Assembly (NCBI GenBank): GCA_963819815.1
Contig: CAWFXL010000001.1
Coordinates: 512,001 to 576,000 of the forward strand
DNA length: 64,000 nucleotides
Origin: an uncultured bacterium
GTDB lineage: Bacteria > Babelota > Babeliae > Babelales > Babelaceae
Direction of reading: 5' to 3'
A program made the position numbers and the translations under genes. The notes under the pieces were generated by a model. It saw only the letters and a program-made list of their open reading frames with translations, was not told where the DNA came from and did not search any database. Positions 5,238 to 25,159 of the stretch are shown piece by piece (within the stretch, counting starts at the first letter, position 1; each line of letters opens with the position of its first letter).

Positions 5238-5540
5238 ATGAAACACTCAATTCAACACATAGGTCCTCAACTTAAAAAAGCGCGTCTTGAAAAAGGTCTT
5301 AGCCAGCGAGCCTTAAGCTTATTGGTGGGATTACCCCAAGGACATCTCTCTAAAATAGAGAGTGGTCTTGTTGATCTCCAAATATCAAGCCTTATAGAAC
5401 TAGCACGTGCTTTGGATTTAGAATTAATGCTCATTCACCGATCTTCAGTGCAAACTGTCGAGATGCTTCAGCGGGGAATGCAAGAAAAAAAATCAGAAAC
5501 TCGTCCCATGTACAGGCTAGAGGATAAAGATGAAGAATAA
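5238..5540 (+). CDS. XRE HTH antitoxin (HipB-like)
   Basis: LKKARLEKGLSQRALS..LSKIESG HTH; overlaps HipA gene. Confidence 0.85.
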   Translation: MKHSIQHIGPQLKKARLEKGLSQRALSLLVGLPQGHLSKIESGLVDLQISSLIELARALDLELMLIHRSSVQTVEMLQRGMQEKKSETRPMYRLEDKDEE

Positions 5541-6747
5541 ACTTAGCGTCTTAGATCTATTTCTTCATAATGAAGCTATCGGCACTTTAACACGTCTTCC
5601 AGACGACAGAAACATCTTTTCTTTCAATGAAGAATATATACATAATCCACGGCGTGCTACACTAAGCCTTTCTTTTAAAGACGACCTTGGAAATTTAATC
5701 ACACAGGTAAAAACTACTAGAACTCGCCTACAACCATTTTTTGCCAATGTGCTACCGGAAGGTTTTATGCGCTCATATTTAGCAGCGCATGCCAATGTAC
5801 ACCCTGACAGAGAGTTTTTCTTACTGGCAGCACTCGGTAATGATCTGCCTGGAGCAATCAGAACAGGCCAATTAGCATTTATAACCACATCTCTTAAAGA
5901 AAAGACAGAAGAATATGTGTTACGTAATGCGCTGCATTTTTCTCTAACAGGTTTACAGCTAAAGTTTTCTGCCACATGGAAGAATAAAGACAGGCTCACC
6001 ATCCCTTTAAAAGGAACCGGAGGCAATTGGATCATAAAATTACCTTCACCAACATTCATGGGAGTTCCCCAAAATGAGTATTCTATGATGGATCTTGCCC
6101 GGCAAATTGGAATCAATGTTCCTAAAACCGCCCTTGTTAAACTAGATCAAATAAATGGTATTCCTAGCGATATTGAAAGATTTGGTTCATCTGCTTTTGT
6201 TATAGAGCGATTCGACAGAAGTGCGAATGGTGAAGTCATACATATAGAAGACTTTGCACAGATATTTGCGATTTACCCAGAAAGAAAGTATAGTGCTGCA
6301 AGCTATGGAAATATCGCAGAAGTAATTTGGGCTGAGGTAGGTGAGAATGGGCTAGCAGAATTTATTCGGCGTCTTGTATTTAATATTTTGATTGGAAATG
6401 GAGATATGCACCTTAAAAATTGGTCGCTCATCTATCTCGATAAAATAAATCCACAACTCGCCCCTGCTTATGACTACGTATCAACCGTCCCTTATTTATC
6501 TGCAGATACACTCGCGCTTAATTTCATGGGTATTAAAAACTTTCAAGCAATAACGCTTGAAAGTTTCGAAAAATTCGCTGCGCAATCGCGCCTTCCAAAA
6601 AAGCTGGTTATAGATACAGCAGTAGACACAGTAAATCGTTTTGCACGGGTCTGGCAAAGCGCTGGCACTTTGCCAATTGAAGACAAGGTAGCTGAGGCAA
6701 TTGCAATACACCTCAAAACCCTTCCATTATGGCACTTGCGCGCGTAG
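5530..6747 (+). CDS. hipA: HipA-family kinase toxin
   Basis: N-terminal PFFANVLPEG; P-loop SLTGLQLK; ERFDR; HIEDFAQ; GNGDMHLKN; LAPAYD. Confidence 0.92.
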   Translation: MKNKLSVLDLFLHNEAIGTLTRLPDDRNIFSFNEEYIHNPRRATLSLSFKDDLGNLITQVKTTRTRLQPFFANVLPEGFMRSYLAAHANVHPDREFFLLAALGNDLPGAIRTGQLAFITTSLKEKTEEYVLRNALHFSLTGLQLKFSATWKNKDRLTIPLKGTGGNWIIKLPSPTFMGVPQNEYSMMDLARQIGINVPKTALVKLDQINGIPSDIERFGSSAFVIERFDRSANGEVIHIEDFAQIFAIYPERKYSAASYGNIAEVIWAEVGENGLAEFIRRLVFNILIGNGDMHLKNWSLIYLDKINPQLAPAYDYVSTVPYLSADTLALNFMGIKNFQAITLESFEKFAAQSRLPKKLVIDTAVDTVNRFARVWQSAGTLPIEDKVAEAIAIHLKTLPLWHLRA

Positions 6748-7037
6748 CTCATCCAGCAGCACCTTTTCCTCTTGTTCCTTATGCGACTGATATTTCCTCT
6801 GAACATCTATGCTAATGGTGATCGCCTAGATGATCTACGCAGATCCCTCAGGTACCTTTCGGAACAACTTTGGGAATGTTATTACACCTCTCGGTCCCCA
6901 TTTTCTAATCGAACCGCGGGAGTGCCGGCAAAGAAAAGCAACTTTGACATTTTTCCCAATAAGTATATACTAATTGCAATATATCTAGAAATGAAAACGC
7001 CCGTTTTCTTAATGCCATAGGCCTCAAGGAATATATC

Positions 7038-8936
7038 ATGAAACGACATTTATTCATTTTCAGTCTCGGACTGTTATCCTTTCAAAGTTCTCTCCCCATG
7101 ACAAAAGTAGTCTACGATGAAGTTGCCGCAGCAGTGCGAGCTGGTGATATCCAGAAATTACGTAGTTTAAAAGGAAAAGTCGATTTTGAGGCATTGGTAG
7201 ATCCCGAGTATGGCGCGAACCCTCTTTTTTGGGCAATTGATCTTAATTCGCCTGCTGTTCTCAGGTTTTTTCTTAACGAAACCACGATAGATGTTAATAA
7301 AACAAACAACCGTAGGACAACCCCACTTCTGTTTGCCGTCGAGAGTCCCCATAGACTGGAAGTAGTCAAATTACTATTAGCAAAACCCGGAATCAACTTA
7401 CATATTAGGGGCGCTTCGGGTATGACCGCTTTAGAACGGGCAGATGAGGAATATCATACCGTTCTTCGTGAAGCAGGCGCTGAGGTACCATTAACTGAGA
7501 CCGTCTTCTCTGTGGCGATTGACTTAAATAAGAAATGGATCGTCGAAAGATTTTATCAAGAACATCCAACTGAAATTGTGGCAGCACACGTTATGCATGC
7601 TGCGCGGACTCATCGAGAATTAGCGGCATTTTTTACGGAAAAATTACTCCATGGATCGTTCGTGAGCGCAGAACACTATGATGATTATTTTATGCTTGAT
7701 TTTGGGGCGTTTTTTGCTGCCCATCCTGACGTTGAGGAGATTCAGTTTTTATATGGCCGGTTTCAGATAAGCCATATACTCACAAGACCTATTCAATCTG
7801 CATCATCGCAGGCTCCTCGCCTTACTGCTGCGCTACTCAGAAAAGAAACAAGTTGTGGAGAACAGCAAAAAAGCGCCATGATTATCATATTTAAGCCAAG
7901 CGAGTTACCGCATCAAGAGACGCCTCAAGCAACATCTGCAACCTCATCCCATCTACCACAGCGCTGCACATTGCCAACGAGGGAGCGCGATATATCTTTT
8001 GCACAAGCCATTATCCAAAGCGATCTAAAAAAAATATCAGAATTAGCCCAACAGGGCGCCGATGTAAATCAATTATTCAATGGTACTGAGACAGCAGCTC
8101 ATTTTGCTATAGCAGAGAATAATATCGAACTGCTTGGTGTTTTGGCATCATTCTCTCATTTTAACCAAAATAGTAAGAATGCTTATGGCACCTCGCTCGT
8201 GAACGCTATAGCACACCTCACCAGCCTCGTAACCCCTCCTTGGAGTTTTATTGAAGCAGCGATTAAAACTCTTACAAGCCGTGGACCTCTGCAATGGGCT
8301 GATCGTAATAGATCTGGTTTCCATTCTCTTCATATTACTCGTGCGAATGACCGCCATCTGAGATTTGCCCAACTAAGAATCAAATACGACAGATCTGTCG
8401 ATGGATCAGCCTCTGCACAAGTGGCCTTTCCCTTTTTGCCACCTGATTTTATGAGTGCACAGAGTGCTTCCTCCTCGGGGCAACCTGTTGTCCAAGGTGA
8501 TCATAACCCCCCGCAATGCGAAACTATTACTATCCGAGGTGATGGTACCGACGTTATTCCAGACCAGTATAAAGGTATTTCGTTACCACCAGGCACCTAC
8601 ACAAAAGAAGAATTTGATAAGGCGCTAAAACAAAGATATGAAAAGTTTTTAGAAGAACAAAAAAAAGTGCACAAGTGTGCTCTGTGCCAAAAAGACGCTT
8701 CATCTCGGTGTGCTAAATGCAAAAAGGTATATTACTGTAGCGGTGAATGTCAAAAAAACCACTGGCCTGATCATAGAGCGGAATTTCATGTGCCAGCACC
8801 TTGCAGCATTTGTCTTGAAATAGTAGCAGACGCGCGCCAAGAACAGTGTGGGCACCAATTTCATGCATCGTGCATAGCAAAATGGATAAAAGCCACTTGC
8901 CCGGTCTGCAAAGCTAACCTTAATCCTGCCATATAA
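7038..8936 (+). CDS. Exported ankyrin-repeat protein with C-terminal MYND and RING-H2 fingers
   Basis: Signal peptide; GANPLFWAI, TTPLLFAV, GMTALERA, TAAHFAI; CALC..CAKC..YYCSGECQKNHWPDH; CSIC..CGHQFHASCIAKW..CPVC. Confidence 0.88.
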   Translation: MKRHLFIFSLGLLSFQSSLPMTKVVYDEVAAAVRAGDIQKLRSLKGKVDFEALVDPEYGANPLFWAIDLNSPAVLRFFLNETTIDVNKTNNRRTTPLLFAVESPHRLEVVKLLLAKPGINLHIRGASGMTALERADEEYHTVLREAGAEVPLTETVFSVAIDLNKKWIVERFYQEHPTEIVAAHVMHAARTHRELAAFFTEKLLHGSFVSAEHYDDYFMLDFGAFFAAHPDVEEIQFLYGRFQISHILTRPIQSASSQAPRLTAALLRKETSCGEQQKSAMIIIFKPSELPHQETPQATSATSSHLPQRCTLPTRERDISFAQAIIQSDLKKISELAQQGADVNQLFNGTETAAHFAIAENNIELLGVLASFSHFNQNSKNAYGTSLVNAIAHLTSLVTPPWSFIEAAIKTLTSRGPLQWADRNRSGFHSLHITRANDRHLRFAQLRIKYDRSVDGSASAQVAFPFLPPDFMSAQSASSSGQPVVQGDHNPPQCETITIRGDGTDVIPDQYKGISLPPGTYTKEEFDKALKQRYEKFLEEQKKVHKCALCQKDASSRCAKCKKVYYCSGECQKNHWPDHRAEFHVPAPCSICLEIVADARQEQCGHQFHASCIAKWIKATCPVCKANLNPAI

Positions 8937-9258
8937 CCCAGGGGCTTTTATCAAGGCAACAACTGGGGTCTGGTTTGACTCTGCATGAGTCGTTTTAGGG
9001 AGAGAAGAAAAGAAGAAAGAAGCCAAGATGAATCTTGGCTTCTTCGATAAAGTTACCTATTAATTCGCTTTATGCTCAGCATAATATTATCGAATTCAGT
9101 GTTTACGGTAACTATCAAGAATTATCAGCAAAACACCATAGCTGTGGCCAATGTTACACTGGCCAAAAACAGGTCCTGCAAATCCAGGAGGAAATGTTAA
9201 TTTGCGGTGAGGTAACATTCGCCTAAAAATTTACCTGCTTGATTTGTGGTCGGCTTTA

Positions 9259-9494
9259 TTAATTGCCGATCAATAAGTTCTTTAAGCGTATTATTAGTTG
9301 AACCCGCTTCTCAACAGAAATATCCTCAGCCTTTAACGCTTCAAGAATTTCGTACATATCACTTCTCATCACCCTAGCGCCTTGTCTCTGTCCTGTGCAT
9401 CTTGTAGAACTTTTGCTGCAGGACCAGACGAGCCCATTGCCACATAAGAATGGCCGACAATAGCAAGAACTATAAAGCTTCGTGATAAATTCAT
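9259..9494 (-). pseudogene. Frameshifted exported-protein gene relic
   Basis: ATG 9494 gives signal-like MNLSRSFIVLAIVGHSYVAMG-SSGP.. and stops after ~41 codons; a protein-like helix continues in another frame (MYEILEALKAEDISVEKRVQL). Confidence 0.45.
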
Positions 9495-9813
9495 ACATGG
9501 ACCTTTCATTAATGATTGTTAAGTTATTACGCTCAAAAGTTTAGAGGTTAAAAAAAAATAATCAACGTGTTGTTAGGACCATTGAATCGAAGAATCAGCA
9601 AATTTAAAAAAATTTGCATCCCGGCAAGACTTACCATTTAGCGTTAGGTTAAATTCGCATAGACAGAGTAAGATCTCCTATTAATTTAATAAACAGATTT
9701 TTGTTCAAGGAAGCTTTCTCGCATCGTAAGAAAATTCATCTTTACTGGATGCCACGCCGAAAGTCTTATGGAGAGCCTAGAGACACTCGTACGCATTTCG
9801 CCTCTTGTATCCC

Positions 9814-9842
9814 TTGACTACTATATTTAAATATAGTAGTCT
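9814..9842 (+). promoter_or_regulatory. Sigma70 promoter overlapped by a perfect 26-bp palindromic operator
   Basis: TTGACT-N17-TAGTCT; gactactatatttaaatatagtagtc (9816..9841) is self-complementary. Confidence 0.75.
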
Positions 9843-9854
9843 TAAATAGAGTAG

Positions 9855-9959
9855 CCTCACCCGCTATCGATAATAATATTGCTCGCTATAGGTAACAAAA
9901 GAAACCAAAAGAACGATATTGAGATCGCCCGCGAGCGCATGATGGGGAGTAATAAATGA
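9855..9959 (+). pseudogene. C-terminal relic of a RelE/HigB-type toxin
   Basis: SIIILLAIGNKRNQKNDIEIARERMM*; ATGA overlap with downstream HTH gene; in-frame stop at 9852. Confidence 0.7.
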
Positions 9960-10267
9960 AAACTAAGAGCTTTACAGCATATCTTGAGAAGCGTCTTAAT
10001 AAAAATGAGATCGCTCAGATTAAAGAACAAGCAGAACTCGAGATCAGAATACTCAAGTCGATCCAGAAGATTCTTGCCGAAACTATGGCTGAATATATGA
10101 GAGAGAATGGTGTAGGATTCAACGAACTGGTACGTCTTTTAAACTCAAGTCCCGCTCACGTTTCAAAAATACAGCGAGGGGAGGCAAATTTAACACTTTC
10201 AAGTTTGGCTCACTTATTAGCATTAATGGGGAAAGAGCCGCACGAAGTGTTTAAAGGTCTGAAGTAG
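9956..10267 (+). CDS. XRE HTH protein (HigA-like antitoxin)
   Basis: GFNELVRLLNSSPAHVSKIQRGEANLTLSSL HTH. Confidence 0.85.
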   Translation: MKTKSFTAYLEKRLNKNEIAQIKEQAELEIRILKSIQKILAETMAEYMRENGVGFNELVRLLNSSPAHVSKIQRGEANLTLSSLAHLLALMGKEPHEVFKGLK

Positions 10268-12193: not shown

Positions 12194-15100
12194 TCAATAT
12201 TGTTTGGTTTGATTCATGTCGAACATTTTACGACCAAGCTCAAAAAACTTTTGGGCTTCATCAAAGTTTCTTTCCTTTTCAAATATACCTGCTATACGGA
12301 ACAATGCTTTAATACTCCCTTTCACGATAGCAAGTTTATAATATTTTTTTGATTCATCGAAAAGGCCCTTCTTTTCAAACACAAATCCTAAATTGAAAAG
12401 CGCATCTTGACTACCCTTATCAATAGCCAATTTCAATAATCTTTCAGCTTGCGCATAGTCATTTTCGCTTATTGCTATGCATGCTAAATTATTTAGAGCA
12501 CTAATGTTCCCATTATCAATCGCGCGCCTATACCAGCGTTTTGCTTCTTCGTTATTGCCCTGTTTTCGAAATAAAAGCCCTAAATTATTCTGTGCAAAAC
12601 CATCTTCTTGAGCGGCAGCACGTCCATAGTATTCGATTGCATCAACAAGTTTTCCTTCCCTTTCAAGTAATAATCCTATATTAAATTGAGCGATGGCAGC
12701 ACCCTTATCGGCGGCCTGCTTTAAGAGCCTTTTCGCTTCCTCATGATTACCTTCATTTTTAGCGATGCATGCTAAATTATTTAGGGCACTAATATTTCCC
12801 TGATCGGCAGAAAGCGTTAATACTATTTTCGCTTTTTTTATATTACCCTCCTTTCGCAACTCCATTCCTACAATATTTTGAGCTAAAGCATGCCCATTTT
12901 TGGCTGCGCGTTGATAGTGTACCATTGCTTCAATGACTTTGGCCTCGCATTCCAATTTTACTCCCAAAGCAAAATCCGATTCCGCATCATTATTACCGAC
13001 AGGCAGCGTAGCTAATTGTTCTGCGCTTTTATCTGCAATCTCTTCTTGAGCATGTGCATGTAGCGGAGTGGTTGTATCAGCGTCTTTATTGTCAGCACGC
13101 TTGAAGCTCCCCCCAGCCCTCATACGATTCTCTTCAATTTGAATTCTACCAGCGATGTCTATTTGATCATTAACTTTTTCTTGAGCATCTTCCGAGAACC
13201 GTTCTGCTTCTTTAATCGTCTCTTCATTTTGAACTCTTTCAACTATTTTAGCCTGGGATTGAGCGTTTCGCCTAGCGGCTGAGTCAATACCTTTATTCAC
13301 AGTACGCACACGCAACGTACCAGTTTTTTTACCAGCATCTTCGTTTTGTGCATTACCACCTTGTGCACAAGCGTTTCGCTTAAAGGCTGCATTATAATCC
13401 AGTGCGGTATTACCTTTCTTATCTTTGAATTCCAAAGACACTCCACTTTTGACCAATAACTCCTCTAAAAAAACTAGCTTTTCAAGCTGAGAAGTTCGTC
13501 GCAACTGACCGTGGGTTTTTTTCATTTTACAAGCCAATATGATGGGTGTTTCACCGAGTGAATTTTGAATATTTGGATTTATAATAGCATTATCTCTTAA
13601 TAATGCAGCTGCTGCAGGTACGCGACAATCCCTTACTGCATTGTGTAGAGCAGTATCACCTGTCTTTGAAACTCTATTTGGATCAGCACCACTCAAAAGT
13701 AATCTGCATACAATAACACTATTTCCCATCCGCGCGGCGATATGAAGAGGCGTCTCTCCCTCACTAGTTAGATCATTAGGATTAGCTCCATTGTTAAGTA
13801 ACGCATCCACATGATTAATACGGCCTTTTAAAACAGCTAAATGCAAGAGAGTATAACGATGACGCGATGTTTGAATTTCTGAAAAGTCAGCAAACCAATC
13901 GTATAATTCAGGTAACTCTTTATCCAAAAGAGCGAGCGCAATTTGTCTGCCAACGCGCATTTGTAAAGAAATTTTGGCCCCATATTCCCGAAGAAGATTA
14001 AAGCATTGCATGAGCGGGTGAGCTTGTATGGTATCTTTATCATGGGAGCCATCAAAGAGCGAAAAAAATTCTCGCCCATTATTTCCTGAACATATGTGTT
14101 CAAGAGGAGTTACCCCATTATTATTAGGTAGTGCAGGGTGTACCTTGCTTTGTAGCATTAAGCGCACTGCATTAACGTTGCGGCGGTCAATTGCGCTATG
14201 CAGAGGTGCAAGATAATTTGTAGTACAGTCCGGGTTAGTTCCAGCATCTATGAGAGCTTTTACACAATCAGTCTGTTCATGCATAAATGAATAAAAGAGG
14301 ACTCGTTCACAGTCTAAGGCAGAAGGTCTTTCTTCGCCTTTGTTTACTAAGAAAAGGCTAACTAAATGAGGAATATTATAGCGAACTGCTCTGTCGAGTG
14401 GAGTTTCTCCTTTATTATTAGTTGTATTTATGCGTGATGTATATTTTAACAGCAGCTCAACAATATTACACCGCGGATCACTATCTTCCATAAACCCATT
14501 ATCTTTTTTAGGTATAGCATTCGCATTTTTGAAGAGATCTAATGCAACCATAAGGGGAGTATCTCCCTTTTTATTACGCTTATCAATCTGACACAAGGCG
14601 CGAGGTTGTAGAGACATTTTTTCCAGTAATAGTGCAACCATTTCTTCATCTGCTTTTTCCACCGCTAAATGGAGTGCAGTAGAGCCATCTGCATTAGTTT
14701 TCATAAAATCAATACCTGCTTCGAGTAAAGCCATAACGCTCTCGAGGTAGCCATTTGAGACAGCTATATGGAGAGCATTTTGCAATGAATCCCCTTCAAC
14801 GGCATCCAAATCACAGAGTTCAGATTCACTTGCTAGAACACTTATAAATCCTGACAAATTCTTTCGGGCCGCCATTATAAGGGGAAGCTCACCCCGAGTT
14901 GCATAATTTGCCCTAGCCCTACCAAACTTGTAGAGAATAATAAATGCCTCACGGCATTCATTCTCAATTGATAAAAGTAGTGGATTTGATGGGAAATGAA
15001 GTCCGTTTTGAAGGGCCTTAAGAATAACTCTGTTTACGTTAGCTCCATATGCTATGAGCATCGCCACAGATTGATCATAATTATTGCATGATGCAGTATG

Positions 15101-15886
15101 TAGTGGAGATACGTTGTCTCTATTTGCGGCATCAGGAGAAGCACCCGCATCAAGAAGTGCATCAACGCATAAAAAGTTGTTACCTTCAACTGCAGCATGT
15201 AAGGCAGTTCTTCTTTCAAATAAATTTCGAGCATTAAGATCGGGCTTCATGCTCACCAATAAACCTACTGTGTTGATTTTACCTCTTGAGGCTGCTCGAT
15301 GCAGAATAGTTTCTCTACCTTCTGGCGTATCAAAGAGATAATTTAGCCATCGTAAATCTTTAAATATACTAGCAAGCAATGCTGCATTATCAATCTCAAT
15401 GGCCTGATTCAGAATTACTTCATCAACATTGGCTCCTGATTCAATAAGAAGCTTTGACAGGGCAAGCTCTCTAGCATGCACACTGTACCAGAGTGCAGTT
15501 CGGTTAGAAGTATCTTTTTGATTAAGATATAAGGCCAGTAGATTTTTACTAAAAAAGCTAAAAAGAAATGAAGGAGGAGGTGCTTGCCGTGCAGCTTCTA
15601 ACGTAAGCCGCTTTGCACATTCAAAATGACCATGTGAAGTGGCGCATAGAAGAGCTGTTGTTCTCTGCTCATCTGAAGCAAATGGACTTACGTTTCGCTG
15701 TAACATGGTATCAAGGTCAACTAAATTACCCTGTTCTGCAGCTTCAAAAAGCCTTCTATTCATGGATTCAGCAACGGCTAAAGCAGCACCGTGAGCTTCC
15801 CTAAAAGATGCTAGGCAATACAGACCGTAGAAAAGACTTCGTGTTAAGAACTTAAGCGAAGAGAAGACCGGCATAGTACCTCGCAC
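12194..15886 (-). CDS. Large ankyrin-repeat / SEL1-repeat protein
   Basis: Many TPLH/TALH ankyrin repeats; C-terminal AQFNIG/ALNNLA..A..G SEL1 repeats. Confidence 0.9.
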   Translation of the reverse strand: MRGTMPVFSSLKFLTRSLFYGLYCLASFREAHGAALAVAESMNRRLFEAAEQGNLVDLDTMLQRNVSPFASDEQRTTALLCATSHGHFECAKRLTLEAARQAPPPSFLFSFFSKNLLALYLNQKDTSNRTALWYSVHARELALSKLLIESGANVDEVILNQAIEIDNAALLASIFKDLRWLNYLFDTPEGRETILHRAASRGKINTVGLLVSMKPDLNARNLFERRTALHAAVEGNNFLCVDALLDAGASPDAANRDNVSPLHTASCNNYDQSVAMLIAYGANVNRVILKALQNGLHFPSNPLLLSIENECREAFIILYKFGRARANYATRGELPLIMAARKNLSGFISVLASESELCDLDAVEGDSLQNALHIAVSNGYLESVMALLEAGIDFMKTNADGSTALHLAVEKADEEMVALLLEKMSLQPRALCQIDKRNKKGDTPLMVALDLFKNANAIPKKDNGFMEDSDPRCNIVELLLKYTSRINTTNNKGETPLDRAVRYNIPHLVSLFLVNKGEERPSALDCERVLFYSFMHEQTDCVKALIDAGTNPDCTTNYLAPLHSAIDRRNVNAVRLMLQSKVHPALPNNNGVTPLEHICSGNNGREFFSLFDGSHDKDTIQAHPLMQCFNLLREYGAKISLQMRVGRQIALALLDKELPELYDWFADFSEIQTSRHRYTLLHLAVLKGRINHVDALLNNGANPNDLTSEGETPLHIAARMGNSVIVCRLLLSGADPNRVSKTGDTALHNAVRDCRVPAAAALLRDNAIINPNIQNSLGETPIILACKMKKTHGQLRRTSQLEKLVFLEELLVKSGVSLEFKDKKGNTALDYNAAFKRNACAQGGNAQNEDAGKKTGTLRVRTVNKGIDSAARRNAQSQAKIVERVQNEETIKEAERFSEDAQEKVNDQIDIAGRIQIEENRMRAGGSFKRADNKDADTTTPLHAHAQEEIADKSAEQLATLPVGNNDAESDFALGVKLECEAKVIEAMVHYQRAAKNGHALAQNIVGMELRKEGNIKKAKIVLTLSADQGNISALNNLACIAKNEGNHEEAKRLLKQAADKGAAIAQFNIGLLLEREGKLVDAIEYYGRAAAQEDGFAQNNLGLLFRKQGNNEEAKRWYRRAIDNGNISALNNLACIAISENDYAQAERLLKLAIDKGSQDALFNLGFVFEKKGLFDESKKYYKLAIVKGSIKALFRIAGIFEKERNFDEAQKFFELGRKMFDMNQTKQY

Positions 15887-23182: not shown

Positions 23183-23755
23183 ATGCGATCAAAAACCAAA
23201 AAGGAAAGCATGCCAGCTGTTTTTAAATGGATAGATACTCCTGTAGGGAATGTAAAGATTATTGCTCATGATAAGAAACTTAGCGCACTCGTATGGGAGA
23301 AATCCCAAGAATTACCTACAAGTGGCTCGCTTATTGAAGATTCCAATCATAGTATCTTATGCGCAACAGAGGCACAGTTAAAACAGTTCTTTGCAGGTCA
23401 GCGCACTTCTTTTGATCTTACTCTAGAGCTGCAAGGCACGCAATTTCAAAAAGAAGTATGGTTGGCATTATCTGAAATTCCCTTTGGTATAACCGTAAGC
23501 TACTTATCTATCGCCCAAAGAATTGGTCGACCACAGGCCGTTCGTGCGGTCGGGACTGCGATTGGAAAAAATCCCTATTCTATTATCATTCCGTGTCATC
23601 GTGTTATTGGCATAAATGGAAAACTCACCGGTTTTGCAGGAGGATTATCGGTAAAGCAAAAGCTTTTGGATTTTGAAGCATCGGTCTATAAAGATATGCA
23701 AAATGGAAAAACATCATCCCATCTAGATGGGAAGGTAACTTGTATCGAGGTATGA
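23183..23755 (+). CDS. ogt: Methylated-DNA-protein-cysteine methyltransferase
   Basis: GTQFQKEVW, RAVG, IIPCHRV. Confidence 0.95.
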   Translation: MRSKTKKESMPAVFKWIDTPVGNVKIIAHDKKLSALVWEKSQELPTSGSLIEDSNHSILCATEAQLKQFFAGQRTSFDLTLELQGTQFQKEVWLALSEIPFGITVSYLSIAQRIGRPQAVRAVGTAIGKNPYSIIIPCHRVIGINGKLTGFAGGLSVKQKLLDFEASVYKDMQNGKTSSHLDGKVTCIEV

Positions 23756-25159
23756 TGAACCCGTATCGGCGCCTCTCACACCGGCTACCAGCAGTTCAAG
23801 CAAACCCAGTGATGGTTGATCGTATGGGCTTATCTTCCAGAGCGCGAAGCTACTAGCCGATTCCACCAGAGCACGTGTACCATTAGCATTAAAATCCACC
23901 ACAAGCACTGGGTCAAACAACTGAGAAGATCCGAACGTTTTTATAAGTTTTTGGGATGCTACATCCCATTGAGTTGCTGTACCATCCTGAGAGCCAGTAA
24001 GAATCTGACTAACATCGCCATTAATGGCTACTGCAGTAATAGGTTTTAATTGTTTAAATGTAGCGATGCACGTACCTGTAGCAGTACTCCATAACATAGC
24101 GATGCCGTCTTTAGATCCAGTGAGGACATACTTTCCATTGCGGCTAAACACCGCCGCCTGAATTGGGGCATCGTGACTCAACGTACGAATTCTCGTTCCA
24201 TTGCCAGCATTCACTAAGCATGCTTCACAGCGAGATTCTACAGAGTCTGTAAGAATATACGCAATCTCCCCAGGATGAAAACTTACTAAGCTCATGAGAT
24301 TCGAGTTAATGAGATGTGCTTGCAAGAGGAGTGTACCAGAGGTTACATCCCACAACCTGATCTTTCTGGTATATCCTTCTGCAAGTACTTTTAGGCCATC
24401 TCTACTCATGCAACAGCACTTAACAGGTTCGCCAAAATCGAATGTCCCTGTAAGTGCACCCGTCATCAAGTTCCATAGTTTAACCGTATGATCTTTGGAG
24501 CCTGAGAGCACTTGATTTTGGGTAGGACTAAAAGAAACCGATGTAACTACATTGTAATGCCGATATATCATCTCAGGCAAAGGATCAGTAACTTTCCAAA
24601 GAGTAGTAAGAATGAACTTTCCATCATGACTTACATCAACAGAAAGCACAGGCTTGTCCTGCTTAAGGGTCTTTAGAAGAGTACAGTCCTTTGTCTTCCA
24701 GAGCTTGACAGAACCATCGTAAGCTCCGGTAACAAGATATGTGCCATCAGAACTAAAAGCGCGACAGGTAATATCCCCAGCATGCTCTAAAATACCCTGG
24801 TAATCACCCGAAGGCAACGCAAACAGGCATGCCCCGATATGTTCCATAGAATTATTATCCCGACTCATAACAATAACCTGAGAACTATCTGGTGTAAACC
24901 CAGACAAATTCTCATGCCGCAGATTAAGCTGCAACATCTCAACTTCTTCATTGGAGCCAGTAGCTCTCGCTTCACTTCTTGCCTGGGAAAAGGTATTAAG
25001 CGCCTGTACTGCCTCTAGCGAGCTACTCGATGCTTCATCCCCAAACGCAAGAGCACTCGCAGCAGTGCTACTAATCGTATGCGCTAGAGTCATACCATCT
25101 AATGCGAAACCCCCAGCGGAAAAGACTATAAGAGCGCTCACCGTTTGCAATCGTTTCAT
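23723..25159 (-). CDS. Exported WD40-repeat protein
   Basis: LVTGAYDGSVKLW, VLSGSKDHTVKLW, VLTGSKDGIAMLW, ILTGSQDGTATQWD; signal peptide. Confidence 0.92.
   Translation of the reverse strand: MKRLQTVSALIVFSAGGFALDGMTLAHTISSTAASALAFGDEASSSSLEAVQALNTFSQARSEARATGSNEEVEMLQLNLRHENLSGFTPDSSQVIVMSRDNNSMEHIGACLFALPSGDYQGILEHAGDITCRAFSSDGTYLVTGAYDGSVKLWKTKDCTLLKTLKQDKPVLSVDVSHDGKFILTTLWKVTDPLPEMIYRHYNVVTSVSFSPTQNQVLSGSKDHTVKLWNLMTGALTGTFDFGEPVKCCCMSRDGLKVLAEGYTRKIRLWDVTSGTLLLQAHLINSNLMSLVSFHPGEIAYILTDSVESRCEACLVNAGNGTRIRTLSHDAPIQAAVFSRNGKYVLTGSKDGIAMLWSTATGTCIATFKQLKPITAVAINGDVSQILTGSQDGTATQWDVASQKLIKTFGSSQLFDPVLVVDFNANGTRALVESASSFALWKISPYDQPSLGLLELLVAGVRGADTGSSYLDTSYLPI

What the first reader, a model, noticed from the sequence alone, without database searches (positions are those of the whole stretch)
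7038..8936. Bacterial exported Ankyrin-MYND-RING-H2 protein, candidate E3 ligase effector
Seen: signal peptide, two ankyrin blocks, a MYND finger (last Cys replaced, HRAEFH) directly followed by a complete C3H2C3 RING with the conserved Trp. Known: RING-H2 domains recruit E2 enzymes, MYND binds proline-rich motifs, and both are mainly eukaryotic. Inference: a host-ubiquitination effector with an unusual domain architecture.
Basis: partly seen in the sequence, partly recalled or inferred. Interest (0 to 1): 0.7.

Follow-up and report, generated by a model that had tools for sequence, protein, structure and literature searches.

The report
Secreted bacterial ankyrin–MYND–RING ligase mimic
A small-genome intracellular bacterium encodes an exported ankyrin-repeat protein that ends in a fused pair of eukaryote-type zinc fingers (a variant MYND joined directly to a RING-H2), most likely a mimic of a host ubiquitin ligase; the kind of protein is known, but this fused tail is a distinct, recurring module.

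Summary
Window 7038..8936(+) is one intact 632-aa ORF. It has a hydrophobic N-terminal leader, two ankyrin blocks, a MYND finger whose last Cys is replaced (H579-RAEF-H584), and four residues later a complete C3H2C3 RING-H2 with W616. Both fingers pass Pfam's curated cut-offs.

The contig is bacterial. It is a 1.60 Mb contig of a 1.64 Mb genome with HipBA, secretins and ATP/ADP translocases. I found no E2, ubiquitin, U-box or F-box there.

The C-terminal about 120 aa form a conserved cassette: PPGxYT-helix, then MYND with H-x4-H, then x-P-x2, then RING-H2. I saw it in 12 proteins plus one truncated copy, behind different ankyrin scaffolds that carry leaders. All 13 have H-x4-H. The other 12 MYND fingers of this genome and three eukaryote-looking MYND+RING proteins keep H-x3-C.

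In the bacterial order, MYND occurs in 38 of 261 genomes and RING in 143 of 261. The full cassette occurs in only 2.

Best reading (about 0.6): a Sec-exported, host-directed RING E3 mimic. Activity, delivery and targets are untested. Printed work on Dependentiae already predicts secreted ankyrin proteins and a RING protein; MYND was not mentioned where I searched. This is a new variant of a known kind, of moderate interest.

The parts
6944..6971 (+). Promoter-like site: TTGACA, 16-nt spacer, TATACT
   Evidence: 11 of 12 consensus matches, the best of 8 sites in the region (shuffles give a mean of 6.5 sites, so this is a consensus match only). It lies about 66 nt upstream of the start codon.
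7026..7030 (+). Shine-Dalgarno-like AAGGA, 7 nt before ATG-7038
   Evidence: A similar motif precedes the leader-including ATG in 4 of 5 cassette genes examined, and precedes the internal Met in 0 of 5.
7038..8936 (+). Whole gene, 632 codons plus stop
7038..7097 (+). N-terminal leader (residues 1-20): n-region K2 R3, 11-residue hydrophobic core; a Sec-type signal peptide is likely
   Evidence: AlphaFold2 gives a helix at residues 2-16. The cleavage site is not canonical here, and no dedicated predictor was run.
7098..7649 (+). Ankyrin block 1 (residues 21-204)
   Evidence: Pfam Ank_2 32-122 and Ank_5 82-135. Model pLDDT is above 90 for residues 31-210. VIA-align gives Z 18.6, rmsd 1.7 over 127 residues against 9l9i_A.
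7650..7970 (+). Beta-rich region of unknown family (residues 205-311), predicted as six strands
   Evidence: block means of pLDDT 34-87; segments 254-257, 272-275 and 291-304 are under 50; no Pfam hit. Together with ankyrin block 1 it is shared with stand-alone ~300-aa proteins P0016, P0037 and P0135. Its fold was not searched on its own.
7983..8390 (+). Ankyrin block 2 (residues 316-451)
   Evidence: Pfam Ank_4 323-366; helical repeats in the model; ankyrin matches span up to residue ~453.
8397..8519 (+). Low-confidence, probably disordered linker (residues 454-494)
   Evidence: pLDDT under 50. Most of it (about residues 452-496) is absent from orthologue P0002.
8571..8675 (+). Start of the cassette: LPPGTYT motif and a long helix (residues 512-546)
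   Evidence: Conserved in the cassette alignments. Helix at 523-542 in the full-length model and at 12-31 of the cassette model.
8676..8789 (+). Variant MYND finger (residues 547-584): seven canonical ligands, eighth Cys replaced, His one position later (H579-x4-H584)
   Evidence: The model half matches solved MYND domains (2dan rmsd 1.1 over 39 columns; 4a24 1.5; 2od1 2.0; all Foldseek E-values above 0.01).
8802..8912 (+). RING-H2 finger (residues 589-625), C3H2C3, with I591, W616, P622 and K625
   Evidence: PDB profile search: RNF4 3.7e-11, AMFR/gp78 1.1e-10, RNF165, RNF13, Cbl. Fold matches: RNF13-E2~Ub 5zbu rmsd 2.4 over 48 columns, gp78 2lxh, TRAF6-Ubc13 5vo0.
9016..9045 (.). 13-bp-stem palindromic hairpin about 80 nt after the stop; terminator-like
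   Evidence: listed on the minus strand with a T-rich tail; the stem is a palindrome.

Best explanation

Proposed mechanism:
1. The N-terminal leader takes the protein across the inner membrane by Sec. This is inferred from leader anatomy and its conservation.
2. It leaves the cell by an undefined route, possibly a secretin-based system or outer-membrane vesicles. This is inferred.
3. In the host, the RING-H2 binds a host E2~ubiquitin through I591, W616 and P622, with K625 in the linchpin position. This is inferred from sequence and from similarity to active RINGs.
4. The two ankyrin blocks, and the MYND-derived finger that in eukaryotes binds PxLxP-type peptides, pick the substrate. This is inferred.

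The last ~120 residues are a lineage-specific cassette in which the MYND's last ligand has become a His shifted by one residue and the RING follows after only four residues. The cassette has been grafted onto different ankyrin scaffolds.

Shown: the gene, its domains, its bacterial setting, the conservation of the cassette, and that no E2 or ubiquitin was found in this genome.
For: Domains pass curated cut-offs. All eight RING ligands have canonical spacing, and the hydrophobic and linchpin positions are conserved in the orthologue. The RING is most similar to active E3 RINGs: RNF4, gp78/AMFR, RNF165, RNF13, Cbl. Its model half superposes on RING-E2~Ub complex structures.

No UQ_con, ubiquitin, U-box or F-box-like hit was found in the 88%-complete genome.

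Intracellular lifestyle and an export route are plausible: three ORFs with TLC (ATP/ADP translocase) matches, four secretin ORFs, and two T2SS-type ATPases.

The leader is conserved in kind in P0002 and in every N-terminally complete cassette protein. All 12 regex-detected MYND ORFs of this genome have a leader, against a crude 38-52% of 1261 ORFs genome-wide. A Shine-Dalgarno motif precedes the leader ATG in 4 of 5 cassette genes and the internal Met in 0 of 5.

The cassette is conserved in 12 proteins plus one truncated copy, with H-x4-H in 13 of 13 and x-P-x2-C in 12 of 12.

Printed context (passages read): in Babela massiliensis 79 of 126 ankyrin proteins carry a signal peptide, and one RING protein is called a potential E3 (PMC4378268). 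In Chromulinavorax destructans 44% of CDS and 78% of ankyrin proteins carry a signal peptide (PMC6561590).
Against: There is no experimental evidence of zinc binding, E2 binding, ligase activity, secretion or a host target.

The route from periplasm to host cytosol is unknown. A 16-ligand Cys/His module would have to pass the periplasm without being oxidised.

The predicted cleavage site in this protein (SLP|MT) has Pro at -1 and fails the A-x-A rule. A public gene call starts at M21 without the leader.

The MYND lacks its canonical eighth Cys, so its second zinc site may be altered or lost.

The cassette model is only moderately confident (pLDDT 73, pTM 0.49). All Foldseek E-values are above 0.01 and no solved chain matches both halves.

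Some cassette members vary at E2-relevant positions: W to L in L027, and H to C at ligand 5 in L029.

The phylum name rests on an earlier unchecked note. Neither of my two genome-contig scans returned a close relative of the window's genome whose record title would name the lineage.
Confidence: 0.6

Rival explanations
1. A secreted host-binding scaffold or decoy without ligase activity. The RING and MYND act only as protein-binding modules. For example they might sequester a host E2, or dock onto PxLxP-bearing co-repressors as eukaryotic MYND proteins do, while the ankyrin blocks bind other partners.
For: The MYND ligand set is non-canonical. Most MYND proteins of this genome (11 ORFs) have no RING at all, so MYND has a role of its own here. 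One congener copy ends right after the MYND and lacks the RING (P0157). Some cassette members change E2-contact or ligand positions.
Against: The RING keeps all eight ligands, canonical spacing, and the I/W/P positions in this protein and its orthologue. RING ligand positions 1-4 and 6-8 are invariant and position 5 is His in 6 and Cys in 1 across 7 aligned cassettes. Its best sequence matches are catalytically active RINGs.
Confidence: 0.22
2. A protein that works in the bacterium's own envelope or periplasm, or on its surface, and never reaches the host cytosol. The zinc fingers would serve as structural or metal-binding modules.
For: A Sec-type leader by itself only reaches the periplasm. 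A crude 38-52% of ORFs in this genome have such leaders, so a leader is not specific to effectors. I searched for no type III, IV or VI secretion system.
Against: Ankyrin, MYND and RING are cytosolic or nuclear eukaryotic interaction domains with no known periplasmic role (established knowledge). No bacterial ubiquitin machinery was found for a RING to use. Printed analyses of related bacteria interpret signal-peptide ankyrin proteins as secreted into the host.
Confidence: 0.13
3. Eukaryotic or giant-virus DNA mis-binned or mis-assembled into a bacterial genome, or a very recent unexpressed transfer.
For: All three domain types are mainly eukaryotic. Giant-virus and eukaryote-looking sequences with MYND and/or RING exist.
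Against: The gene lies 519 kb into a 1.60 Mb contig. GC is 0.42 in the 2-kb window 6001-8000 and 0.41 in 8001-10000, against 0.427 for the contig. It is intronless, with a bacterial promoter-like site, a Shine-Dalgarno motif and a bacterial-type leader. It is flanked by HipBA. Cassette paralogues lie in a single-contig 1.73 Mb congener genome. The eukaryote-looking MYND+RING proteins have canonical H-x3-C and long linkers, unlike this cassette.
Confidence: 0.02

Closest known systems
Eukaryotic RING-H2 E3 ligases (gp78/AMFR, RNF4, RNF165/Arkadia-like, RNF13, c-Cbl RING)
   Same: C3H2C3 ligand set and spacing, a hydrophobic residue after the first Cys pair, Trp in the helix, CP-x-C-K/R ending. 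Best PDB profile matches have E 3.7e-11 to 1e-7. The model half superposes on RING-E2~Ub complexes.
   Different: It is encoded by a bacterium in which no E2 or ubiquitin was found. It carries a secretion leader. The RING is welded four residues after a MYND-derived finger. No solved chain matched both halves.
Eukaryotic MYND fingers (ZMYND10, DEAF-1, BS69/ZMYND11, ZMYND8, AML1-ETO, SMYD)
   Same: It passes the Pfam zf-MYND cut-off. Seven of eight ligands and the Q-x3-W-x2-H helix motif are conserved. The model half has rmsd 1.1-2.0 over 37-39 columns against solved MYNDs. A preceding long helix resembles ZMYND8/11.
   Different: The eighth ligand Cys is replaced (F583) and a His follows one position later. 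In the five congener (G005) copies, P0012 and P0023 the sixth ligand is also His. Peptide binding is untested.
Ankyrin effectors with a C-terminal ubiquitin-system adaptor in intracellular bacteria and poxviruses (ankyrin/F-box: Legionella AnkB, Orientia Anks, poxvirus Ank-PRANC); named from established knowledge and the title and abstract in the listing (PMC4148323)
   Same: The logic is the same: ankyrin repeats as the target-binding part, plus a small C-terminal module that plugs into the host ubiquitin machinery.
   Different: Those proteins use an F-box to recruit SKP1/cullin. This one carries its own RING, which would bind E2 directly. No F-box-like hit was found in this genome.
Eukaryotic ankyrin-RING ligases (plant XB3/XBAT family, Mind bomb)
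   Same: Ankyrin repeats N-terminal to a C-terminal RING (abstract of PMC3596331 in the listing; MIB1 ankyrin domain among the fold matches).
   Different: Pfam RING_XB3-XBAT31 scored 15.1 bits against a cut-off of 50. Those have no MYND and no leader. There is no detectable orthology.
Predicted RING finger protein and secreted ankyrin proteins of Babela massiliensis and Chromulinavorax destructans (Dependentiae/TM6)
   Same: The same predicted strategy in the same kind of bacterium: signal-peptide ankyrin proteins and a RING protein proposed as an E3 component (PMC4378268; PMC6561590; passages read).
   Different: In the Babela paper a word search found MYND 0 times. No paper in the library holds both Dependentiae and MYND. 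I did not compare sequences with those organisms' proteins.
Known bacterial E3 effectors with RING/U-box-like folds (NleG, LubX, AvrPtoB); recalled, not searched
   Same: A bacterial protein that would recruit a host E2 through a RING/U-box-type surface.
   Different: By my recollection those are zinc-free U-box-like folds delivered by type III or IV systems. This is a zinc-ligand-complete RING-H2 with a Sec-type leader. No U-box (PF04564) hit was found in this genome.

Membership tests
RING-H2 finger (Pfam zf-RING_2 PF13639 / zf-C3HC4 PF00097) | Score above the curated family cut-off | tested here: met
   zf-RING_2 31.3 bits against 27.3; zf-C3HC4 32.3 against 21; zf-C3HC4_2 28.7 against 27.
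RING-H2 finger (Pfam zf-RING_2 PF13639 / zf-C3HC4 PF00097) | Eight zinc ligands C-x2-C-x(9-39)-C-x(1-3)-H-x(2-3)-H-x2-C-x(4-48)-C-x2-C | tested here: met
   C589, C592, C604, H606, H609, C612, C621, C624 with spacers 2, 11, 1, 2, 2, 8, 2. All are conserved in P0002.
RING-H2 finger (Pfam zf-RING_2 PF13639 / zf-C3HC4 PF00097) | E2-contact residues (hydrophobic after Cys1, helix Trp, Pro after Cys7) and a basic/polar linchpin after Cys8 | tested here: met
   I591, W616, P622 and K625 are present and identical in P0002. The residue roles are recalled from c-Cbl/RNF4 literature, not from a call.
RING-H2 finger (Pfam zf-RING_2 PF13639 / zf-C3HC4 PF00097) | Binds two zinc ions and stimulates E2~Ub discharge | not testable with these tools
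   Needs biochemistry.
MYND finger (Pfam zf-MYND PF01753) | Score above the curated family cut-off | tested here: met
   39.6 bits against 22.7, but only profile positions 1-37 of 39 are matched.
MYND finger (Pfam zf-MYND PF01753) | C6HC ligand set ending H-x3-C | tested here: not met
   H579-RAEF-H584: position +4 is Phe and a His sits at +5. The same holds in all 13 cassette copies. The 12 other MYND fingers of this genome end H-x3-C. I therefore file it as a MYND-derived variant, not a canonical MYND.
MYND finger (Pfam zf-MYND PF01753) | MYND fold | tested here: inconclusive
   2dan rmsd 1.1 over 39 columns (prob 1.00) and 4a24 rmsd 1.5 over 37, but all Foldseek E-values are 0.01 or higher and the model pLDDT is 73.
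Ankyrin repeat proteins | Pfam ankyrin models above cut-off and a stacked helix-turn-helix repeat fold | tested here: met
   Ank_2 53.3 bits against 27.3; Ank_4 47.6 against 22.7. Z 18.6, rmsd 1.7 over 127 residues.
Sec-type signal peptide | Positive n-region, 7-15-residue hydrophobic core, small residues at -3/-1 of the cleavage site | tested here: inconclusive
   The n-region (K2 R3) and an 11-residue core are present and conserved in kind. The -1 residue here is Pro. Paralogues have A|M sites. No SignalP-type predictor was available.
Legionella Dot/Icm ankyrin effectors (NCBIfam AnkG/AnkH/AnkX equivalogs) | Score above the equivalog cut-off | tested here: not met
   29.3 bits against 500, 26.9 against 600, 20.8 against 1400. 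These are generic ankyrin similarity only.
Ankyrin/F-box or U-box bacterial effectors | Presence of an F-box or U-box | tested here: not met
   Neither domain is among the Pfam hits of this protein. No PF12937 or PF04564 hit was found anywhere in the genome. The control genomes did not ring either, so genome-wide absence is weakly shown.

The most novel reading that the evidence does not exclude
The MYND(H-x4-H)-xPxx-RING-H2 tail is a single rigid four-zinc module that arose once in this bacterial lineage. It would couple a proline-motif reader directly to an E2-recruiting RING, making a portable 'recognise-and-ubiquitinate' cassette that the bacteria graft onto different secreted ankyrin scaffolds. 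It would sit within a so far undescribed expansion of MYND fingers in bacteria: 2-27 copies in each of the 10 genomes of the genus, and 38 of 261 genomes of the order.
Probability: 0.3. Interest if true: 0.65.

Novelty: new variant of a known kind. Interest (0 to 1): 0.5.

Why it matters
Zinc-dependent RING E3 mimics are, to my recollection, rarely documented among bacterial effectors; the studied ones I recall are mostly U-box-like, HECT-like or NEL.

This protein, and the wider finding that RING fingers occur in 143 of 261 genomes of this order and MYND fingers in 38 of 261, suggest that these protist parasites manipulate host ubiquitination with directly borrowed eukaryotic modules, exported behind ordinary Sec-type leaders.

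The cassette gives a compact, testable unit of about 120 residues. It can be used to ask whether a MYND-derived finger can serve as the substrate-reading arm of a minimal ligase. It also raises the question of how Cys/His-rich zinc modules survive transit through a bacterial envelope.

If the cassette is inactive, it is simply one more eukaryote-like repeat protein in a lineage already known for them.

Tried and rejected
1. Naming the organism. The full-length alignment A1 gave 152 pattern matches and 0 relatives. The M16 peptidase of the window gave only relatives of 34% identity or less in many phyla.

2. A genome-contig scan with the 7-sequence cassette alignment A2 was rejected by the tool because it has no conserved 7-10-column stretch. 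I used the genome search instead.

3. The profile search of 1.84 billion representatives unintentionally used all 619 columns, because full-length P0002 was in alignment A3. Most of the 150 listed hits are therefore generic ankyrin proteins. Only hits whose best stretch lay in the cassette or the N-terminal module were used. The totals (17068 at E<=0.001) say nothing about the cassette.

4. Metagenome and viral scans with cassette alignment A5. These gave 11 and 1 loci. The six loci I inspected by script (L143, L144, L151, L153 and L154, plus L046 fetched) held canonical MYND or RING alone (one MYND in a giant-virus MAG) and no new cassette; L145-L150 and L152 were not inspected, and their matches cover only the MYND part of the query.

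5. ESM Atlas for residues 150-315: ankyrin-like rows with low shared-feature counts (122-139). This is not informative about the beta-rich region.

6. VIA-align wide search with the full-length model: the ankyrin domains filled the list. The beta-rich region and the cassette were barely tested there.

7. Sequencing runs: no RNA holder listed. Four rows held shares of 0.05-0.08, and none was laid. This is no evidence on expression or habitat.

8. Literature. There were 0 papers with Dependentiae + MYND. Three papers with zf-MYND + symbiont were all on fungi or plants. The MYND + eukaryotic-like + intracellular bacteria listing showed only host MYND proteins bound by Ehrlichia or Orientia effectors.

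9. Earlier findings of this scan: none on MYND in bacteria.

10. I sent no complex-prediction job. Reference chains are limited to bacterial, archaeal and phage Swiss-Prot entries, so a host E2 could not be supplied.
Full report
THE OBSERVATION. Window 7038..8936(+) is a single uninterrupted 632-codon ORF.

Pfam places these domains:
- ankyrin models at residues 32-135 and 323-366;
- zf-MYND at 547-581 (39.6 bits, cut-off 22.7);
- RING models at 589-625 (zf-RING_2 31.3 against 27.3; zf-C3HC4 32.3 against 21).

Read directly from the translation, the MYND is C547-x2-C550-x7-C558-x2-C561-x5-C567-x3-C571-x7-H579, followed by RAEF and H584. The canonical eighth Cys (H-x3-C) is therefore a Phe, and a His sits one position later.

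Four residues on (VPAP), the RING is C589-x2-C592-x11-C604-x-H606-x2-H609-x2-C612-x8-C621-x2-C624. It is a complete C3H2C3 RING-H2 with I591, W616, P622 and K625.

The N-terminus (MKRH-LFIFSLGLLSF-QSSLP) has a positive n-region and an 11-residue hydrophobic core. The signal peptide is confirmed only as far as inspection and comparison allow, because no predictor was available.

IS IT A BACTERIAL GENE? Yes.
- The window is bases 512001-576000 of a 1,604,641-base contig, in a 1.64 Mb two-contig assembly of 42.7% GC, 88% complete by marker genes.
- Composition across the window is even at 0.39-0.45 GC.
- Directly upstream lies a HipB/HipA pair. Further genes include a CDP-alcohol phosphatidyltransferase, M16 and M20 peptidases, a 1230-aa ankyrin-TPR protein and a WD40 protein.
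- The gene has an 11-of-12 sigma-70-type promoter match at 6944-6971, an AAGGA motif 7 nt before the ATG, and a 13-bp-stem hairpin 80 nt after the stop.
- The genome has four secretin ORFs, two T2SS-type ATPases and three ORFs matching the ATP/ADP translocase family. That fits a diderm energy parasite.
I could not name it myself.
- The picture fits that label. All 261 species genomes of its order are small, 0.5-2.4 Mb among the genomes listed. Ankyrin proteins with leaders abound: 37 of 46 ankyrin-motif ORFs have one, by a crude script.

WHERE TRANSLATION STARTS. One public gene call (P0001) starts at M21 and drops the leader. Three things argue for M1.
- The 46%-identical orthologue P0002 has an equivalent hydrophobic leader before the shared 'PMT'.
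- All N-terminally complete relatives with the same tail have one.
- An AAGGA-type motif precedes the leader ATG in 4 of 5 genes examined, and the internal Met in 0 of 5.

All 12 MYND-bearing ORFs that a regex finds in this genome have such a leader. The crude genome-wide figure is 38-52% of 1261 ORFs. That is in line with the 44% reported for Chromulinavorax destructans (PMC6561590, passages read).

RELATIVES AND THE CASSETTE. In a 5.8-billion-protein library only two full-length relatives exist: the protein itself and P0002 (46% identity, same architecture).

The last ~120 residues recur far more widely. A congener genome (G005, one 1.73 Mb contig) has five intact genes and one truncated gene with the same tail behind different ankyrin-like N-terminal regions. 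Five further metagenomic proteins carry it: P0012, P0018, P0022, P0023 and P0029.

The module has four parts in order:
- an L/A-P-P-G-x-Y-T motif and a long helix;
- a MYND with ligands C, C, C, C, C, C/H, H, and then His at +5;
- x-P-x2;
- a RING-H2.

H-x4-H is present in 13 of 13 copies, and the x-P-x2-C junction in 12 of 12 copies that have a RING. By contrast, all 12 other MYND fingers in this genome (11 ORFs) end H-x3-C. So do the three eukaryote-looking proteins that combine MYND and RING with long linkers, P0158-P0160.

The altered ligand therefore goes with the direct fusion. This points to a single origin and a constrained junction. Cys-to-His replacements, rather than random residues, suggest that zinc binding is kept; this is inference.

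In the order, a profile of the cassette finds the full module only in G000 and G005 among 261 genomes. MYND alone occurs in 38 of 261 genomes, including all 10 of the genus at 2-27 hits each. zf-RING_2 occurs in 143 of 261. Neither family rang in the 14 control genomes.

The protein-language-model atlas lists clusters of ~170-aa proteins with MYND plus RING (score 0.92; 89 members; taxa not recorded). MYND+RING combinations therefore exist elsewhere.

STRUCTURE. The cassette alone folds with mean pLDDT 73 and pTM 0.49. In the full-length model the MYND and RING regions reach block means of 82-93.
- Foldseek gave no match at E<=0.001.
- The MYND half superposes on solved MYNDs: 2dan rmsd 1.1 over 39 columns, 4a24 1.5, 2od1 2.0.
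- The RING half superposes on active RINGs, several solved with E2~Ub: 5zbu RNF13, 2lxh gp78, 5vo0 TRAF6, 6w9d RNF12.
- No chain matched both halves.
- A profile search of PDB sequences puts the RING nearest RNF4 (3.7e-11), gp78/AMFR (1.1e-10), RNF165, RNF13 and Cbl.

The full-length model (pLDDT 79) shows ankyrin repeats at 21-204, a beta-rich region at 205-311, ankyrin repeats at 316-451, a disordered linker at 454-494, and then the cassette. Ankyrin matches reach Z 18.6. Residues ~1-290 also exist as stand-alone ~300-aa proteins: P0016, P0037 and P0135.

HOW IT MOST LIKELY WORKS. I found no E2, ubiquitin, U-box or F-box in the genome (the genome is 88% complete, and the controls did not ring either). 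A RING here has nothing bacterial to work with.

The best reading (about 0.6) has three steps. Sec exports the protein, which then leaves the cell by an undefined route; secretins are available, and vesicles have been proposed for a related organism. In the host, the RING-H2 recruits an E2~ubiquitin. The ankyrin blocks and the MYND-derived finger choose the substrate.

This parallels ankyrin/F-box effectors of Legionella, Orientia and poxviruses, except that the ligase domain is carried directly.

Rivals:
- a non-catalytic scaffold or E2 decoy (0.22);
- a protein that never leaves the bacterial envelope (0.13);
- contamination (0.02).

Weak points are the non-canonical cleavage site, the unknown passage of a 16-ligand Cys/His module through the periplasm, the changed MYND ligand, and the complete lack of experimental data.

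COMPARISON WITH PRINT. [quoted passage not shown] It also reports one RING protein as a 'potential E3 component', an F-box protein and secreted deubiquitinases. A word search finds MYND in it 0 times.

No paper in the searched library holds both Dependentiae and MYND. Searches for zf-MYND with symbiont, and for MYND with eukaryotic-like or intracellular bacteria, gave nothing on bacterial MYND proteins.

The general idea is therefore in print. The MYND expansion, the breadth of RING fingers across the order and the fused variant cassette are not, as far as these searches reach.

VERDICT. This is a new variant of a known kind, interest 0.5.

Noticed in passing
window 5238-6747 (+): A HipB-like HTH gene (100 aa) overlaps the start of a HipA-like kinase gene (405 aa; HipA_C E 4.5e-48). 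This toxin-antitoxin pair sits directly upstream of the finding, in a reduced intracellular genome.
   Followed up: no
G000 genome-wide; e.g. window 7095-7100 (P20-M21): In most MYND and cassette proteins a Met follows the leader directly (..A|M K/Q/T..). Genome-wide, a [AGSPC]-M motif at residues 16-35 occurs in 19.5% of 619 leader ORFs against 9.2% of 642 others. Met is 2-3 times enriched 4-9 residues after the hydrophobic core. It may be the retained original start codon of genes that gained a leader, or a feature of the cleavage site. It probably explains gene calls that skip the leader.
   Followed up: partly
G000:C1:1387882-1391415 (-), outside the window: Three tandem paralogous genes (381, 392 and 398 aa), each with a leader and a canonical C-terminal MYND. 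They are part of 14 MYND hits in this genome.
   Followed up: partly
window 7650-7970 (residues 205-311): A predicted six-strand beta-rich region with no Pfam match. Together with ankyrin block 1 it is shared with stand-alone ~300-aa proteins P0016, P0037 and P0135. Its fold was not searched on its own.
   Followed up: partly
window 12194-15886 (-) and 23723-25159 (-): A 1230-aa ankyrin (7 Ank_2 stretches) plus TPR protein, and a 478-aa WD40 propeller protein. These are further eukaryote-like repeat proteins in the same window.
   Followed up: no
G000:C1:1405683-1407047 (+), 125674-127035 (-), 1469016-1469972 (-), 227724-228950 (+): Four other ORFs with RING matches in the same genome. Three have N-terminal leaders; the fourth (C1:227724-228950) shows none from its first ATG. 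One has two RINGs and a hydrophobic C-terminus, and one has a Cys-rich N-terminal half.
   Followed up: partly
G005:C1:208851-209138 (protein P0157): A congener copy of the cassette gene ends at a TAA right after the MYND variant (..FHQL*) and lacks the RING. It is either a natural truncation or a decaying paralogue.
   Followed up: partly
G000:C1:1178086-1185459 (-) and C1:22164-22663 (-): Three secretin-domain ORFs of about 800-940 aa are clustered within 8 kb. A fourth lies elsewhere and has a TGA inside a neighbouring match. That is many secretins for a 1.6 Mb genome.
   Followed up: no
L032 (G023:C47, ORF 438-2330): A same-family genome encodes a protein with a leader, WD40 repeats, an ankyrin-like part and a C-terminal RING-H2. 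RING tails are thus also grafted onto other repeat scaffolds in this family.
   Followed up: no
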